From assembly GCA_017609535.1 (NCBI GenBank), contig JAFCDU010000001.1, positions 4,782 through 68,781 on the forward strand: a stretch of DNA of 64,000 nt. The letters are read 5' to 3'. Under the pieces are notes generated by a model. That model made no database searches. It had not been told where the DNA came from and worked only from the letters and a program-made list of their open reading frames with translations. Shown here one piece after another: positions 4,200 to 61,695 of this stretch. The stretch is from Candidatus Pacearchaeota archaeon. Its GTDB lineage: Archaea > Nanobdellota > Nanobdellia > Pacearchaeales > GW2011-AR1. Position numbers and translations under genes: made by a program. Numbering within the stretch: the first letter of the stretch is position 1; the number at the start of each line of letters is the position of its first letter.

Positions 4200-4237
4200 T
4201 TATAATTAATGGTTATAATTAATGGTTATAATTCAAT
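4200..4237. repeat. Tandem repeat TTATAATTAATGG, about 2.9 copies
   Basis: ttataattaatgg ttataattaatgg ttataattcaat, read directly. Confidence 0.8.
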
Positions 4238-4359
4238 ATATATAATAAAATATATAAAATCTTATAAATAAAAAATAAAAAACCCTCCAAACCTCCCTTT
4301 AAAAACATTTCCAAAAGAAATCATAGGGTGGGAGAACATATCTAATCATTTACAGAAAC

Positions 4360-4369
4360 ATTTATAAAA
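4360..4369 (+). promoter_or_regulatory. TATA-box-like element for the PRC-barrel gene
   Basis: catTTATAAAAac about 22-28 nt upstream of ATG 4390. Confidence 0.3.
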
Positions 4370-4389
4370 ACAATCAATTTAATTCTAAA

Positions 4390-4644
4390 ATGGAGAAACG
4401 CCCTCTAAAATTACTTTTAGGAAAACAAATAGTAACAAAAGAAGGTAAACGATTAGGTTCAATTAAGGACATAACCTTTGAAACAAAAACAGGAGAACTA
4501 ATTCATCTTGTTTTAAAGGACCTCACAACCTATACCTCAAACCTATCTTTAGAAAGAACAGCCGATAGGGAAGCTTTAGTCCCTTTCTCAGCAGTGATTG
4601 CTGTAGGGGATTTTGTTGTGGTTTCTGAAGAAGATTTAATATAA
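4390..4644 (+). CDS. PRC-barrel domain protein
   Basis: 84 aa with a GKxVxxxxGxxLGxIxD-like core typical of small archaeal PRC-barrel proteins. A TATA-like TTTATAAAA lies about 25 nt upstream, suggesting a leaderless transcript. Confidence 0.55.
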   Translation: MEKRPLKLLLGKQIVTKEGKRLGSIKDITFETKTGELIHLVLKDLTTYTSNLSLERTADREALVPFSAVIAVGDFVVVSEEDLI

Positions 4645-22338: not shown

Positions 22339-22479
22339 TGAGGGGAGAAGGATTCGAACCCTCGTAGGCACTAAGCCAACAGCTTTCTCGCGATTCACTC
22401 TTCAAATATTATTTCTCAATTGTAAGAGCAAATACGCTCGTCTTGAGGCTGTCCCGTTTGACCGCTCCGGCATCCCCTC
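22339..22479 (-). tRNA. tRNA-Leu (anticodon CAA) with an about 57-nt intron in the anticodon loop
   Basis: The exons match tRNA-Leu at 15305-15388 (acceptor GAGGGGA/TCCCCTC, same D, variable and T arms). Anticodon stem ACAGC...GCTGT with loop CTCAAG[intron]A. Confidence 0.75.
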
Positions 22480-22707: not shown

Positions 22708-22755
22708 TTCCTTTTAATCATTAATTTTATAAAGTTAAATTTTCTCTAATTATTA

Positions 22756-22864
22756 AGACAGCCATAATCGGTTGGTAACACCTGTTCCCTTTCCGAACAC
22801 AGAAGTTAAGCTTCCGATGTTTATGCCGGTACTGTTGAAAAATGGGAAAGCATAAAGCTGTCTT
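22756..22864 (+). rRNA. 5S rRNA (divergent, about 109 nt)
   Basis: TAACACCTGTTCCCTTTCCGAACACAGAAGTTAAGC matches the 5S consensus (...CCGAAC.C.GAAGTTAAGC). Terminal helix AGACAGCC/GGCTGTCT. Confidence 0.7.
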
Positions 22865-22908
22865 TCTTTTTAGATACCTTTTTAATTCTAAGTTATTTGC
22901 TAATTTTA

Positions 22909-23022: not shown

Positions 23023-23128
23023 GCGTGGGTAGTTCAGTGGCAGAATCTCTGCCTTCCATGTTGAAAATTCCACAAGAATTTTCTTGCGGAGTTAGCAGAT
23101 GACCCGGGTTCAAATCCCGGCCCGCGCA
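23023..23128 (+). tRNA. tRNA-Gly (anticodon TCC) with an about 35-nt intron after position 37
   Basis: Acceptor GCGTGGG/CCCGCGC. Anticodon stem TCTGC/GCAGA with loop CTTCCAT[intron]. T arm CCGGG-TTCAAAT-CCCGG. Discriminator A. Confidence 0.7.
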
Positions 23129-59034: not shown

Positions 59035-59567
59035 TTTTTCTTCTTTAAGATTTGGGTTTTAAATTTATTTATCATAATATCTTCAATTTCCTCTTTGCTT
59101 ACATCCTGCCTTCTCATTTTCCCCCTTTTTATCTTCTTCCTCTCAACCCTCTTTCCAGCCCTGGCAAAAACAATTGTAACTTCAAACCCCATAATCCCAA
59201 CCTCTCGAATATATTCAACGCCAGGAATTTCAATATATTCATGAATCCCAAATGAAACAAAATTATCTTTAATTTGTTTTTCTTTTAAAGTATTATTAAT
59301 CGCAGGCAAAACTTTCTTAATAAAATCTTCAGCTTCCTTTCCTCTTAATGTAACCTTCGTGCCGACTTCCAGTCCTGGACGTACGCCCCATGCAGGAATT
59401 CTTTTTGTTGCCTTAATTTTAACCGGCTGTTTTCCCGTCAATGTTTTCAGTAATATAACTCCTTTCTCAAGTTTCTCTCCAGTCCCGCCTACATTCAAGA
59501 CAACCTTTTCAATCATAATTTTTCTCATTATATTTTCTTGTTTTGGTTTTTCAAGTTTTTGTTCCAT
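59031..59567 (-). CDS. rpl5: 50S ribosomal protein L5 (uL5)
   Basis: Operon position. [13 protein letters not shown]. Confidence 0.9.
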
Positions 59568-60226
59568 TATTCAATCACCAAAATTGTTTTCAAAGGAAGT
59601 TCAACTTCCTTCTCCTTTAATTTAATAATGTATCTTTTCTCCCTCATAAGTGTTTTAATCTCTTTAACCTGTCCTCTCTCACCAGCATGCTTTCCAGACA
59701 TAATCTCAACATTAGCACCCTCTTTAAGAGGAAGAATATTCTCAATTGTTCCTTTTTTTGTATTTACAACAACAGAATCTCCAAGTCCGAATTTTTCCTT
59801 TGTGATAAAATTCTGCCCATCTTCAAGATTCATCTGAACTCCATTCGATAAAATTTTCTTTCCAATAATTTTTACAATCTTCTTTTCAGCATCCTTCCCA
59901 GACACCTCTTTCAAGATAAATTTCTTATTTTCAATCTCAACTCTATAATTCTTTCCTATTTTCTCCAACCCAATAACATCAAAAACCTGTAATGGAAATT
60001 TTTCATTTTTCCTTATTTTATTATTAATCTTAACTTCTCCATTCAAACACATAAATCTTGCTTCTTTCCTTGTTCTCGCAATTCCAAGCATCTCCCGCAA
60101 AACAAAAACTAATGGAATGCTCTTGCTCTTCGCATGACTGGCTACAGCTAAATATTTTGTCCCTTTCCGTGCAATCGGCCAGGTTTTAAGCATTGTTTGT
60201 CTCTTCTGATGCATTTTTCCCTCCAA
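59567..60226 (-). CDS. rps4e: 30S ribosomal protein S4e (eS4)
   Basis: HQKRQTMLKTWPIARKG N-terminus and C-terminal KOW region. The true start may be ATG 60214. Confidence 0.85.
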   Translation of the reverse strand: MEGKMHQKRQTMLKTWPIARKGTKYLAVASHAKSKSIPLVFVLREMLGIARTRKEARFMCLNGEVKINNKIRKNEKFPLQVFDVIGLEKIGKNYRVEIENKKFILKEVSGKDAEKKIVKIIGKKILSNGVQMNLEDGQNFITKEKFGLGDSVVVNTKKGTIENILPLKEGANVEIMSGKHAGERGQVKEIKTLMREKRYIIKLKEKEVELPLKTILVIE

Positions 60227-60437
60227 ATATTTTTTCTAATTTATTGATAACTTCCTTGCTCTCTCTGCGATTTTCTCTTTCCAACTTTTCCAACAATTCT
60301 TCAGAATACATTTCTGATAAATCCCCGCCCCTCTTCAATTGATGCCCGTAACCGCAGGTGCAAATCCCGTCTTCAGGCATTCCATTCATTAAGGACGAAT
60401 AGATGCTGCAGTCCCCATCATGTCTTGTTTTTCTCAT
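60186..60437 (-). CDS. Unassigned 83-aa small protein encoded between L24 and S4e (Cys-X16-Cys-X-Cys-X3-His motif)
   Basis: MRKTRHDGDCSIYSSLMNGMPEDGICTCGYGHQLKRGGDLSEMYSEELLEKLERENRRESKEVINKLEKIFGGKNASEETNNA. A GGAGGG RBS lies 4 nt upstream of the ATG. It fills the 190-nt gap between two ribosomal protein genes and slightly overlaps both. Confidence 0.4.
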   Translation of the reverse strand: MRKTRHDGDCSIYSSLMNGMPEDGICTCGYGHQLKRGGDLSEMYSEELLEKLERENRRESKEVINKLEKIFGGKNASEETNNA

Positions 60438-60858
60438 TCTTCCCTCCAGATTTATCCTTCTTATCTTTACTTGATTTATCTTCACTTTTCTTAATTCGTT
60501 TAAATCTCCTTTCATCTTCTAAATTTAATGCAGTTATCATCAATTTTGAGGGATGAAACCAAACAGCAACTTTGCTTCCATCTTTCTTGCTTCTTTGGAT
60601 TCCTTCAATAGAAACCTTCATTTTTTTCATATTTATGCTCGCAACTTTCCCTGTTTTTTTCTTAAACTCCCCTCTCATCACAACAACAGAATCCCCTTTC
60701 CTAATTTCAGCATTCCTTCCATATCTTTCCCTCAACTCCTTGCTCAAAATAGCAGACATCATCTTTCTCTTCAAGTGCAACGGAGCATTTGCTGTGTATT
60801 TCCTTTTCTTTCTTGGTTGTTTGCTTTCTTTCCATTTAGTTGAAAACTTTTGTTTCAT
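60418..60858 (-). CDS. rpl24: 50S ribosomal protein L24 (uL24) with Lys-rich C-terminal tail
   Basis: KQPRKKRKYTANAPLHLKRKMMSAILSKELRERYG...GDSVVVMRGEFKKKTGKV. Start taken at the internal ATG next to L14. The ORF-track start 60963 overlaps L14. Confidence 0.85.
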   Translation of the reverse strand: MKQKFSTKWKESKQPRKKRKYTANAPLHLKRKMMSAILSKELRERYGRNAEIRKGDSVVVMRGEFKKKTGKVASINMKKMKVSIEGIQRSKKDGSKVAVWFHPSKLMITALNLEDERRFKRIKKSEDKSSKDKKDKSGGKNEKNKT

Positions 60859-60859
60859 T

Positions 60860-61261
60860 TTAATACACAACTGACGCCAGCTTTGCAACCTCCTTCCATC
60901 TTTCCTGAACTTCCCTTGCAATAGGCCCTTTAATTTGCGTCCCTTTAGGATTTCCTTTTTCATCTTTCAAAAGCACAACAGCATTATCACTAAAACAAAC
61001 CCTCTCGCCTGTTTTCCTTCTCCATGGCTGTTTCTGTCTTACAATAACTGCATCAAAAACTTCTCCTTTCATCTTCGGATTCCCAGAACGAACAGAAACT
61101 TTAACCCAGTCTGCAACCCTTGCAGGAATCTGTCTTCCTTTTCTTGTCTTTTGTTTTTTTACAGCAACAATTTTAACAATCCTCGCTCCGCTATTATCAC
61201 ACGCTTCCATTTGGCTGCCAATATTCAATCCTCTGCTCACTTTAGCGCTAATTGCTTTCAT
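60860..61261 (-). CDS. rpl14: 50S ribosomal protein L14 (uL14)
   Basis: MKAISAKVSRGLNIGSQMEACDNSGARIVKIV N-terminus. Confidence 0.9.
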   Translation of the reverse strand: MKAISAKVSRGLNIGSQMEACDNSGARIVKIVAVKKQKTRKGRQIPARVADWVKVSVRSGNPKMKGEVFDAVIVRQKQPWRRKTGERVCFSDNAVVLLKDEKGNPKGTQIKGPIAREVQERWKEVAKLASVVY

Positions 61262-61347
61262 TTTTAACCTGATAAAATTTTAGTTCTTCTTTAAGATTTA
61301 TCAAATGAGGGAGATTATCCCGCTTTAATTTCAGATATTCTGTTAAA

Positions 61348-61695
61348 TTATTCATCGCTCCCTCCTGAAGTTTTATCAATTACAACAAAATGAATCATCT
61401 TACTAATTGGCCTGCATTCAGCAATTCTTATTGTATCTCCGACATCAATCTTGTCTTTTAGGCAGTCCGGCAACCGAGCATGAATTTTTGTTTTTCTCTT
61501 TTCATATCTTTCATACTTTCTAACATAGAACATTCTTTCAAAACTGATGACTGCCCTTTTAGGAAACTTTTTAATAACTTCGCCTTGAAAAATCCTGCCT
61601 CTTAATTTCAAAGGTTTCTCTCCATGTTTAGGACAAAATTTATCCGCACAGCTAACTTTTTCTTCTCTTGCTACTTCTTTCACTTTCTTTGCCAT
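61348..61695 (-). CDS. rps17: 30S ribosomal protein S17 (uS17)
   Basis: Operon position. OB-fold VIDKTS... Confidence 0.85.
   Translation of the reverse strand: MAKKVKEVAREEKVSCADKFCPKHGEKPLKLRGRIFQGEVIKKFPKRAVISFERMFYVRKYERYEKRKTKIHARLPDCLKDKIDVGDTIRIAECRPISKMIHFVVIDKTSGGSDE

What the first reader, a model, noticed from the sequence alone, without database searches (positions are those of the whole stretch)
60186..60437. Unannotated 83-codon gene wedged between rpl24 and rps4e with a Cys3-His-like motif
The L24-S4e junction is normally tight. Here a 190-nt gap is fully occupied by an ORF preceded by a strong GGAGGG RBS (4-nt spacer). It overlaps the L24 tail by 20 nt and the S4e start by about 30-40 nt. 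The product (MRKTRHDGDCSIY...GICTCGYGH..., acidic C-terminus) has a C-X16-C-X-C-X3-H arrangement and no obvious homolog. It would be co-transcribed with ribosomal proteins, making it a candidate lineage-specific ribosome-associated or zinc-binding protein.
Basis: seen in the sequence. Interest (0 to 1): 0.5.

Follow-up and report, generated by a model that had tools for sequence, protein, structure and literature searches.

The report
Acquired small metal-binding gene in rpl24 tail
The 83-codon ORF is a real gene for a small, acidic His-Cys3 (probably zinc-binding) protein of an undescribed family shared by DPANN archaea and tailed viruses; it was inserted into the tail of ribosomal protein gene L24 in this lineage only, so it is an accessory hitchhiker rather than a ribosomal component.

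Summary
It is a genuine protein-coding gene. It has 299 clusters of homologs, saturated synonymous but low non-synonymous divergence, and invariant C10, C26, C28 plus H6 (98%).

It is not tied to the ribosome. All 17 closest relatives lack it and have a tight L24/S4e overlap. The closest homolog lies between the two subunits of a 2-oxoacid:ferredoxin oxidoreductase, and other copies are stand-alone or sit in tailed-virus contigs.

In the window, about 223 nt were inserted inside the L24 tail, flanked by a 14-nt repeat of the S4e SD+ATG. ORF83 starts on the duplicated ATG and ends on the ancestral L24 stop.

Best reading: an accessory, horizontally moving small metalloprotein gene expressed by riding a highly expressed operon. 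Its biochemical function is unknown, probably a zinc-stabilised protein-binding module. Interest is moderate.

The parts
60186..60437 (-). ORF83 coding sequence (83 codons plus TAA), a member of an undescribed His-Cys3 small-protein family.
   Evidence: Translation. 66, 309 and 299 homologs in three searches. dN/dS 0.05-0.17 and codon-position conservation 0.85/0.87/0.59. Called as an 83-aa gene by JGI.
60442..60447 (-). Shine-Dalgarno GGAGGG for ORF83, with a 4-nt spacer (AAGA) to ATG 60437.
   Evidence: Sequence. GGAGG-N3-9-ATG is enriched about 3-fold in the window.
60273..60437 (-). Conserved domain (residues 1-55). Contains putative metal ligands H6, C10, C26, C28, other near-invariant residues (G8, D9, Y13, N18, G24, G29, Y30, Y44, S45, E47), and the start of the C-terminal helix.
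   Evidence: Alignments A1, A2, A5, A6. Per-column conservation over 130 sequences. AF2 model with pLDDT 86.
60354..60422 (-). H-x3-C-x15-C-x-C segment (codons 6-28), the predicted metal-binding site.
   Evidence: C10, C26 and C28 are 100% conserved and H6 is 98% conserved in 130 sequences. Most members under 100 aa have exactly 3 Cys.
60225..60302 (-). Predicted long C-terminal amphipathic helix (residues 46-71). Its beginning is conserved (YS.E[LR]..K[LM]) and the rest is variable.
   Evidence: AF2 helix H46-71. Conservation table.
60186..60224 (-). Last 12 codons plus the stop of ORF83 (GGKNASEETNNA*). This is the former 3' tail and stop codon of L24, overlapping the S4e SD and start.
   Evidence: The frame, the 29-nt overlap and the stop position are the same as the L24 tail of insert-less relatives (L024/L025...QNVSKKTSNA*).
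60435..60448 (-). Direct repeat copy 1: TGGAGGGAAGAATG (SD + spacer + ATG). It sits where the ancestral S4e start would be relative to the L24 body, and now serves as the ORF83 start.
   Evidence: Positional homology with L040 (ggagaagaaaaATG inside the L24 tail).
60212..60225 (-). Direct repeat copy 2: TGGAGGGAAAAATG, the SD + spacer + ATG of S4e.
   Evidence: 13 of 14 positions are identical to copy 1.
60215..60437 (-). Inferred inserted segment (223 nt, one repeat unit plus the intervening DNA). It is absent from all 17 closest relatives.
   Evidence: GC is 0.40 (core 0.43) against 0.34 for L24 and S4e.
60418..60858 (-). rpl24 (L24). The body is ancestral; the last 5 codons (EKNKT*) are read from the 5' end of the insert in another frame.
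   Evidence: TIGR01080 5e-39, PF16906. Tail comparison.
59567..60214 (-). rps4e (S4e), starting at ATG 60214.
   Evidence: NF003312 1.5e-50 and PF00900. SD. 56-77% identity to relatives from residue 1.

Best explanation
ORF83 is a functional accessory gene, not a core ribosomal gene.

The product: an acidic protein of about 9 kDa. Its first ~55 residues form a previously undescribed domain with a His-Cys3 site (H6, C10, C26, C28) that most likely binds one metal ion, with Zn2+ as the default expectation. A long amphipathic helix follows and may mediate self-association or partner association.

The family: it belongs to the flexible gene pool of Pacearchaeota/Woesearchaeota-type DPANN archaea and of uncultivated tailed viruses.

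How it got here: a ~223-nt promoterless segment was inserted into the 3' tail of rpl24, at the S4e ribosome-binding site. The SD+ATG of S4e is present twice.
- The upstream copy now starts ORF83.
- The downstream copy still starts S4e.
- ORF83 runs out through the old L24 tail to the old L24 stop.
- L24 acquired a new 5-codon end.

Expression: the gene is therefore expressed from the ribosomal-protein transcript using strong SD signals and overlapping reading frames.

Shown: gene reality, purifying selection, the conserved ligand set, the insertion anatomy, absence from close relatives, and the multiple genomic contexts including viruses.

Inferred: metal identity, translational coupling, and the cellular role. 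My best guess for the role is a zinc-stabilised protein-binding modulator, possibly acting at the virus-host interface. A nucleic-acid binder is unlikely because the domain is acidic.
For: Real gene:
- 299 clusters at E<=1e-3 in an exhaustive search and 309 in a profile search.
- Median pS 0.82 against pN 0.21; dN/dS 0.05 (window/L044), 0.04 (L004/L047) and 0.17 (L013/L014); codon-position conservation 0.85/0.87/0.59.
- No Rfam hit.

Motif and properties:
- C10, C26, C28 are 100% conserved; H6, D9, Y13 are 98%; H32 is only 30%.
- Core pI is 5.0 with net charge -3.
- The AF2 model has pLDDT 86.

Insertion:
- 17 of 17 closest relatives (S4e 56-77% identical) lack it, and their L24 overlaps S4e by up to 29 nt.
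- The ORF83 tail KNASEETNNA* is collinear with the L24 tail QNVSKKTSNA* of L024 and uses the same stop.
- A 14-nt repeat flanks the insert.
- In the S4e tree the window groups with L024/L025 (bootstrap 94), and the whole insert-less clade is separated from the distant insert-bearing lineages (bootstrap 100).
- The insert is GC-richer than its flanks.

Accessory and mobile character:
- The closest homolog, P0002 (75% core identity), lies next to a ParE toxin, directly upstream of the oxidoreductase beta subunit.
- At least 7 oxidoreductase-context lineages, 6 L24/S4e-context lineages and 3 other contexts were seen.
- L017 is a genuine tailed virus (portal 5.7e-21, head morphogenesis 1.7e-37) and carries a copy 69% identical to the window's.
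Against: - The 14-nt 'duplication' is just SD + spacer + ATG, so it could be convergence on an optimal start signal rather than a mechanistic footprint. TAAAATG-type junction similarity in other loci is generic.
- The family tree rests on about 55 columns and is weakly resolved.
- In the distant clade (L004, L011, L013/L014, L046/47) the gene seems to be inherited vertically at L24/S4e. The L011+L046/47 pairing recurs in both the S4e and ORF trees, and one genome has a tandem duplicate. That points to a durable cellular role there and leaves a translation-related function possible.
- Metal binding is untested. I could not read the model coordinates to check ligand geometry.
- No fusion partner, neighbour or structural match gives a functional handle.
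Confidence: 0.62

Rival explanations
1. Lineage-specific ribosome-associated or translation-related protein. The small zinc protein binds the ribosome or assists its assembly, which would explain why it sits between L24 and S4e.
For: - It resides at the L24/S4e junction in at least 6 lineages (the window, L004/L010, L011, L013, L014, L046/47).
- There is apparent vertical retention under purifying selection, and a tandem duplicate in L011.
- Many archaeal ribosomal proteins are small zinc-binding proteins (general knowledge).
Against: - It is absent from all 17 closest relatives.
- It is equally frequent inside the oxidoreductase operon, and also occurs stand-alone and in viruses.
- The protein is acidic, with core pI about 5, whereas ribosomal proteins are typically basic.
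- It matches no ribosomal protein family.
Confidence: 0.1
2. Iron-sulfur or redox accessory protein of the two-subunit 2-oxoacid:ferredoxin oxidoreductase. The 3Cys+1His site would hold a [2Fe-2S] or similar cluster and act as an electron carrier or cluster donor. The ribosomal-operon copies would be secondary relocations of a gene that is still useful.
For: - It is placed between the alpha/gamma and beta subunits, mostly directly upstream of beta with 4-nt overlaps, in at least 7 lineages (L001/L007, L008, L009, L016, L043, L044, the P0018 contig).
- A 3Cys-1His ligand set with C-x-C and C-x3-H spacings is also what CDGSH [2Fe-2S] proteins use (my own knowledge, a lead only).
Against: - The same junction also hosts unrelated cargo: a ParE toxin, a GNAT, a dCMP deaminase and zinc-ribbon ORFs. 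It therefore looks like an insertion hot spot rather than a functional neighbourhood.
- The family occurs in tailed viruses and in ribosomal operons.
- Forward and reversed cores show no similarity to CDGSH.
- Fusion partners are coiled coils or zinc ribbons, not redox domains.
Confidence: 0.1
3. Purely selfish or virus-derived mini-gene with its own insertion bias. It spreads by inserting at SD-ATG junctions of tightly coupled, highly expressed operons, duplicates the start signal, and offers the cell no benefit (or only a conflict-related one such as superinfection exclusion).
For: - The distribution is patchy, and context is decoupled from sequence similarity.
- Two junctions are used recurrently.
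- The insert in the window is flanked by a 14-nt repeat, and the gene ends are chimeric.
- It is present in viral contigs, including between portal and head-morphogenesis genes.
- A toxin-antitoxin gene is co-located.
Against: - No recombinase or nuclease domain fits in about 55 residues, and no mobility gene is consistently adjacent.
- Strong purifying selection on a metal-site protein means the product itself does something.
- The repeat may simply be the ribosome-binding site.
- Synonymous sites are saturated even against the closest homolog, so no recent transfer was captured.
Confidence: 0.15
4. Spurious ORF: a chance open frame in a spacer or UTR, or a frameshifted piece of L24 or S4e.
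For: AT-rich, strand-biased DNA here produces many long meaningless ORFs. The ORF overlaps both neighbours.
Against: - Hundreds of homologs have invariant Cys/His residues, across genomes with 27-60% GC.
- dN/dS is far below 1.
- Homologs have independent starts and stops in other loci and contexts.
- The neighbours L24 and S4e are complete.
Confidence: 0.01

Closest known systems
Small archaeal zinc-finger micro-proteins (for example Halobacterium Brz, PMC2253796, and the CPxCG-type one-domain zinc-finger proteins of haloarchaea)
   Same: They are of similar size (60-90 aa). They have a Cys/His metal-binding motif as the main conserved feature, are often encoded tightly next to unrelated genes, and mostly have unknown or regulatory functions.
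   Different: Those proteins use paired CxxC/CPxCG knuckles (C4 or C2H2-like). This family uses H-x3-C-x15-C-x-C with exactly three invariant Cys. There is no sequence or profile similarity to any Pfam or NCBIfam zinc-finger model, and the family is shared with tailed viruses.
CDGSH iron-sulfur domain (mitoNEET family, Pfam zf-CDGSH)
   Same: Both have a 3Cys+1His ligand set with a C-x-C pair and a C-x3-H pair. The local string H-[DSAT]-G-D-C is the mirror image of C-D-G-[SAT]-H (recalled from memory).
   Different: The order of elements is reversed and the linker is 15 residues rather than 8. The predicted fold is helical. There is no Pfam hit for forward or reversed sequences, and hhalign probability against human mitoNEET is 0.1%. 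It is not a member.
SecA C-terminal metal-binding domain / SEC-C motif (CxCGSG...C[HC])
   Same: Both have a CxCG[SY]G knuckle that supplies two ligands immediately before a helix or turn, and both are small zinc-binding modules used for protein-protein contacts.
   Different: The remaining ligands lie upstream here (H-x3-C) rather than downstream. hhalign probability is 1.6% over 12 columns and there is no Pfam SEC-C hit. It is not a member.
Phage 'morons' and free-standing accessory genes wedged between conserved genes
   Same: They behave the same way: a small promoterless gene is found between conserved, co-transcribed genes, is patchily distributed, is shared between viruses and cellular genomes, and co-locates with toxin-antitoxin and GNAT cargo.
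   Different: Classical morons carry their own promoter and terminator, and homing-endonuclease genes encode the enzyme that moves them. This gene has neither. It depends on the host operon's transcript and a duplicated ribosome-binding site.

Membership tests
Archaeal/eukaryotic ribosomal protein families (any) | A significant match to a curated ribosomal protein model (Pfam or NCBIfam). | tested here: not met
   No Pfam or NCBIfam hit for ORF83 at E<=1 apart from a sub-threshold HSCB_C match (14.5 bits against a 22.1 cutoff). No ribosomal family appears among the hits of 66 members.
Archaeal/eukaryotic ribosomal protein families (any) | Universal or clade-wide presence at a conserved operon position. 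| tested here: not met
   Absent in 17 of 17 closest relatives. Present at other loci and in viruses.
Archaeal/eukaryotic ribosomal protein families (any) | Physical association with ribosomes. | not testable with these tools
   This needs ribosome purification, proteomics or cryo-EM.
CDGSH iron-sulfur domain (zf-CDGSH) | The motif C-x-C-x2-[ST]-x3-P-x-C-D-G-[SAT]-H in that order, and a match to the Pfam model. | tested here: not met
   The order is reversed in the sequence. There is no Pfam match for 66 members or for reversed cores. hhalign probability is 0.1%.
CDGSH iron-sulfur domain (zf-CDGSH) | Binds a [2Fe-2S] cluster through 3 Cys + 1 His. | not testable with these tools
   This requires expression and spectroscopy. 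The ligand set (H6, C10, C26, C28) is compatible but proves nothing.
SEC-C / SecA metal-binding domain | The C-x-C-x8-C-[HC] motif and a Pfam SEC-C match. | tested here: not met
   Only the CxCG.G string is shared. hhalign probability is 1.6% and there is no Pfam hit.
DUF1242 (PF06842) | A score above the Pfam gathering threshold over the domain. | tested here: not met
   12 of 66 members give weak hits (best E 0.0037), all sub-threshold. These most likely reflect a shared short 'ICTC.Y' string.
Known phage protein families (PHROGs) / defence systems (PADLOC) | A significant profile match. | tested here: not met
   PHROGs: 1 of 35 members at E=0.0074. PADLOC: 1 of 42 at E=0.034. There were no tblastn hits in 50,697 GenBank phage records or 72,556 plasmids.
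Zinc-binding small protein (generic Cys3His site) | Four invariant metal-ligand residues with knuckle-like spacing. | tested here: met
   C10, C26 and C28 are 100% conserved and H6 is 98% conserved over 130 sequences. Most short members have exactly three Cys.
Zinc-binding small protein (generic Cys3His site) | Ligands converge in 3D and bind Zn2+. | not testable with these tools
   The model coordinates are not exposed and metal content needs experiment. Secondary structure places C26/C28 immediately before helix 29-36 and H6/C10 in the N-terminal loop.

The most novel reading that the evidence does not exclude
The gene represents a new kind of 'operon-junction hopper'. It would be a minimal, enzyme-less gene cassette exchanged between DPANN archaea and their viruses. 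It would integrate preferentially at the SD-ATG junction of translationally coupled, highly expressed genes (L24|S4e, oxidoreductase alpha|beta, portal|head-morphogenesis), duplicating the start signal so that both the newcomer and the downstream gene stay expressed. Its His-Cys3 product would define a new metal-binding fold acting in virus-host conflict.
Probability: 0.12. Interest if true: 0.75.

Novelty: new variant of a known kind. Interest (0 to 1): 0.45.

Why it matters
The finding matters in three ways.
- It defines an uncharacterised but widespread small-protein family: about 300 clusters, a new H-x3-C-x15-C-x-C signature, and no detectable fold relative. The family lives in the 'dark matter' of DPANN archaea and their viruses.
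- It gives a clean, nucleotide-resolved example of how a genome with almost no intergenic space accommodates a new gene. The gene is spliced into the overlap between two ribosomal protein genes, reuses a duplicated ribosome-binding site, and borrows the neighbour's old stop codon.
- It warns against inferring ribosomal function from operon position alone in these genomes.

If the recurrent use of two specific operon junctions reflects a real insertion preference, that would be a new route of gene flow between viruses and ultra-small archaea.

Tried and rejected
- **Curated libraries.** Pfam, NCBIfam, PHROGs and PADLOC scans of the ORF and of 35-66 family members found nothing above threshold. 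The DUF1242 and HSCB_C hits are sub-threshold and judged spurious.
- **Fusion partners.** 20 longer members were scanned and have no known domains. P0183 was a TPR false positive. My impression that the P0096 N-terminus is HicB-like was not supported.
- **Retro-CDGSH idea.** Reversed cores do not hit zf-CDGSH, and hhalign against mitoNEET gives 0.1%. Rejected as homology; kept only as a note on ligand spacing.
- **SecA zinc-knuckle idea.** hhalign gives 1.6%. Rejected.
- **GenBank phages and plasmids.** No tblastn hits.
- **Structured RNA or leader in the region.** No Rfam match.
- **Paralogs or an oxidoreductase operon in the window.** None found.
- **Junction repeats in other loci as a general target-site duplication.** Rejected as uninformative, because TAAAATG junctions are generic in these genomes.
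- **Literature.** Searches for the motif and for inserted genes in DPANN ribosomal operons found nothing relevant.
- **The 109-codon extended ORF from ATG 60515.** Rejected, because homologs start M-K-T-x-H just before the His ligand.
Full report
**1. The observation**

The window region 58.4-62.8 kb carries an archaeal-type ribosomal protein operon on the minus strand. The gene order is S3, L29, SUI1, S17, L14, L24, ORF83, S4e, L5, S14, S8.

The start is preceded by GGAGGG and a 4-nt spacer. The ORF overlaps the L24 stop (60418-60420) by 20 nt.

S4e is best started at ATG 60214. That start has an almost identical GGAGGG-AAAA-ATG signal and matches the N-termini of relatives. This gives a 29-nt overlap with the ORF83 stop and a 203-nt L24-S4e gap.

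GGAGG-N3-9-ATG occurs 21 times in the window against 6.6 in shuffles, so the signal is meaningful in this organism. Within the operon it marks mainly genes whose starts lie inside an upstream gene.

The Cys spacing is C-X15-C-X-C, not X16. A public JGI gene call already predicts this exact protein, unnamed.

**2. It is a real protein-coding gene**

- A word-indexed search found 66 homologs.
- An exhaustive HMMER scan of 1.84 billion representatives found 299 clusters at E<=1e-3 and 103 at E<=1e-10.
- A profile search found 309 proteins.
- All are unnamed or 'hypothetical'. The named sources are Pacearchaeota or Nanoarchaeota.

Alignments show a core of about 55 residues:
- C10, G24, C26, C28 and S45 are invariant.
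- H6, D9 and Y13 are 98% conserved.
- G8, N18, Y44 and E47 are conserved in 93% or more of members.

The signature is therefore H-x3-C-x15-C-x-C. Most members shorter than 100 aa have exactly three cysteines.

Across 19 loci spanning 27-51% GC, synonymous differences are saturated (median pS 0.82) while non-synonymous differences are low (pN 0.21). Codon positions 1/2/3 are conserved at 0.85/0.87/0.59, and measurable pairs give dN/dS of 0.04-0.17. No Rfam family matches the region.

**3. It is an insertion specific to this lineage**

Using the window's S4e, I fetched 18 related metagenomic loci with S4e 56-77% identical. All 17 that include the junction lack any ORF83 homolog. In the 12 of these with a complete L24, the L24 tail runs to within 1 nt of the S4e start or overlaps it by 8-29 nt.

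In the closest relatives (L024/L025) the L24 tail ends ...QNVSKKTSNA* with a 29-nt overlap. ORF83 ends ...KNASEETNNA* in the same frame, with the same overlap and the same stop position. So the last 12 codons and the stop of ORF83 are the former L24 tail.

L24 in the window ends ...KSGGKN-EKNKT*. Its GGKN (GGA GGG AAG AAT-G) sits where relatives have the S4e SD+ATG inside the L24 tail (L040: ggagaagaaaaATG).

The 14-mer TGGAGGGAARAATG thus occurs twice, at 60448-60435 and at 60225-60212, with 13 of 14 positions identical. The two copies bracket 223 nt that relatives lack. ORF83 initiates on the upstream copy and S4e on the downstream copy.

An S4e tree places the window with L024/L025 (bootstrap 94), inside a clade whose other members all lack the insert. 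That clade is separated from the distant insert-bearing lineages with bootstrap 100. The insert is modestly GC-richer than its flanks, at 0.40 overall and 0.43 in the core, against 0.34.

Whether the repeat is a mechanistic footprint or just two optimal start sites cannot be decided. Similar-looking junctions in other loci are generic TAAAATG overlaps.

**4. The family is not tied to the ribosome**

Among species-representative genomes, all 10 loci are Pacearchaeota or Woesearchaeota.
- Four have the L24-ORF-S4e arrangement (L010, L011 with two tandem copies, L013, L014).
- Four have the gene between the alpha/gamma and beta subunits of a 2-oxoacid:ferredoxin oxidoreductase (L007, L008, L009, L016).
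- Two have other contexts.

Look-ups of individual homologs gave:
- Further oxidoreductase contexts: P0025, P0208, P0002 and P0018.
- Further L24/S4e contexts: P0028 and P0014.
- One stand-alone archaeal gene: P0080.
- A copy on a 148-kb phage-like contig with a lysozyme and an N6/N4 methyltransferase: P0078.

The oxidoreductase junction also holds a ParE toxin (26.3 bits against a cutoff of 23), a GNAT, a dCMP deaminase and zinc-ribbon ORFs. It therefore behaves as a cargo hot spot.

Seven IMG/VR contigs carry the domain. One of them, L017, is demonstrably a tailed virus, with a portal (5.7e-21) and a head-morphogenesis protein (1.7e-37). Its copy is 69% identical to the window's core and lies among small ORFs between those two genes.

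The window copy's nearest relative is an oxidoreductase-context copy (L044/P0002, 75% core identity). That copy comes from a JGI sample numbered adjacent to the one holding the window's exact gene. Ribosomal and oxidoreductase contexts interleave in the core tree, which is weakly resolved. The family is absent from 50,697 GenBank phage records and 72,556 plasmids.

**5. What the protein is**

The second AF2 model (130-sequence alignment) has mean pLDDT 86 and pTM 0.60. Its features are:
- an N-terminal loop carrying H6 and C10;
- short helices at 14-18 and 29-36, with C26 and C28 immediately preceding the latter;
- a one-residue beta-bridge between I25 and Y44;
- a long helix at 46-71.

The core is acidic, with median pI 5.0 and net charge -3. 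That argues against generic nucleic-acid binding.

No solved or viral predicted structure resembles it, and no PDB sequence matches the profile. Longer members fuse the domain to coiled coils, to an N-terminal CxxC zinc ribbon (P0147, P0193) or to a second copy (P0086). None is fused to an annotated domain. Small zinc-ribbon ORFs are adjacent in L008, L009 and L015.

Two resemblances that I recalled from memory were tested and failed as homology. One was the mirror image of the CDGSH 3Cys-1His [2Fe-2S] motif. The other was the SecA CxCGSG zinc knuckle.

**6. Interpretation**

Shown:
- ORF83 is a real gene under purifying selection.
- It was inserted into the L24 tail in this lineage.
- It is built so that it and S4e both keep a strong ribosome-binding site.
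- It belongs to a patchily distributed family shared with viruses.

Inferred:
- It is expressed from the ribosomal operon transcript.
- It binds a metal, with zinc as the default and an Fe-S cluster not excluded.
- It acts as a protein-binding accessory factor.

It is unlikely as a general explanation, and it is unsupported in the window's own clade.

**7. Novelty and score**

This is an undescribed small metalloprotein family, together with an unusually legible insertion into overlapping ribosomal protein genes. It is a new variant of known kinds (small Cys/His proteins; moron-like accessory genes), not a new class of system. Interest is 0.45.

Noticed in passing
window 61251-61355 (minus strand): A second mini-ORF of 35 codons (MNNLTEYLKLKRDNLPHLINLKEELKFYQVKNESN) is wedged between S17 and L14. 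It has the same GGAGGG-N4-ATG signal and overlaps both neighbours. JGI calls it as a gene, but it has no homolog in any fetched relative.
   Followed up: partly
L024:~222-271, L030:~1552-1613, L033:~1640-1697: In three close relatives the S17/L14 junction holds a 16-19-codon mini-ORF (MK[AV][DN]x[RK]FS[FI]I...). It starts at the position of the ancestral ATGA stop/start overlap and ends in a new ATGA overlap with L14. This is another case of a duplicated start signal at an operon junction.
   Followed up: partly
L011:4001-4195 and 4209-4394: Two tandem, diverged copies of the His-Cys3 gene lie between L24 and S4e in Pacearchaeota isolate RIFOXYC1_FULL_38_15. The second copy has HSTNC in place of HDGDC.
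   Followed up: partly
L043:6001-7353; L044:3377-4213; L008:3995-4729; L009:1815-2643: The junction between the alpha/gamma and beta subunits of the 2-oxoacid:ferredoxin oxidoreductase in Pacearchaeota is a hot spot for inserted cargo. It holds a ParE toxin with a probable partner, a GNAT acetyltransferase, a dCMP deaminase, RPB9-like and other zinc-ribbon ORFs, and several unknown small genes. Most of these have 4-nt overlaps with their neighbours.
   Followed up: partly
L046/L047 and L004 (whole ribosomal operon): Ribosomal protein operons of other Pacearchaeota contain many extra unannotated ORFs (about 68-176 aa) at several junctions, for example L2|S19, S17|L14, L14|L24 and L5|S14. This suggests operon-junction insertion is common in this group.
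   Followed up: no
window 23023-23128 (+) and 22339-22479 (-): Two tRNA matches of 106 and 141 nt were found by Rfam but not by ARAGORN in bacterial mode. They are probably intron-containing archaeal tRNAs, next to a 5S rRNA (22754-22866) and tRNA-Arg.
   Followed up: no
P0147, P0193 (proteins); L008:4180-4368, L009:1815-1958, L015:424-573: The His-Cys3 domain is recurrently associated with a small CxxC...CxxC zinc ribbon. The ribbon is either fused at the N-terminus or encoded by the adjacent gene.
   Followed up: partly
L018 (IMGVR_UViG_3300033149_000928), L044 (3300033149), L048 (3300033148): The window's exact gene, its closest cellular homolog and one virus-borne homolog all come from JGI samples with adjacent numbers. 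They probably derive from the same study or site, which is compatible with local gene exchange.
   Followed up: no
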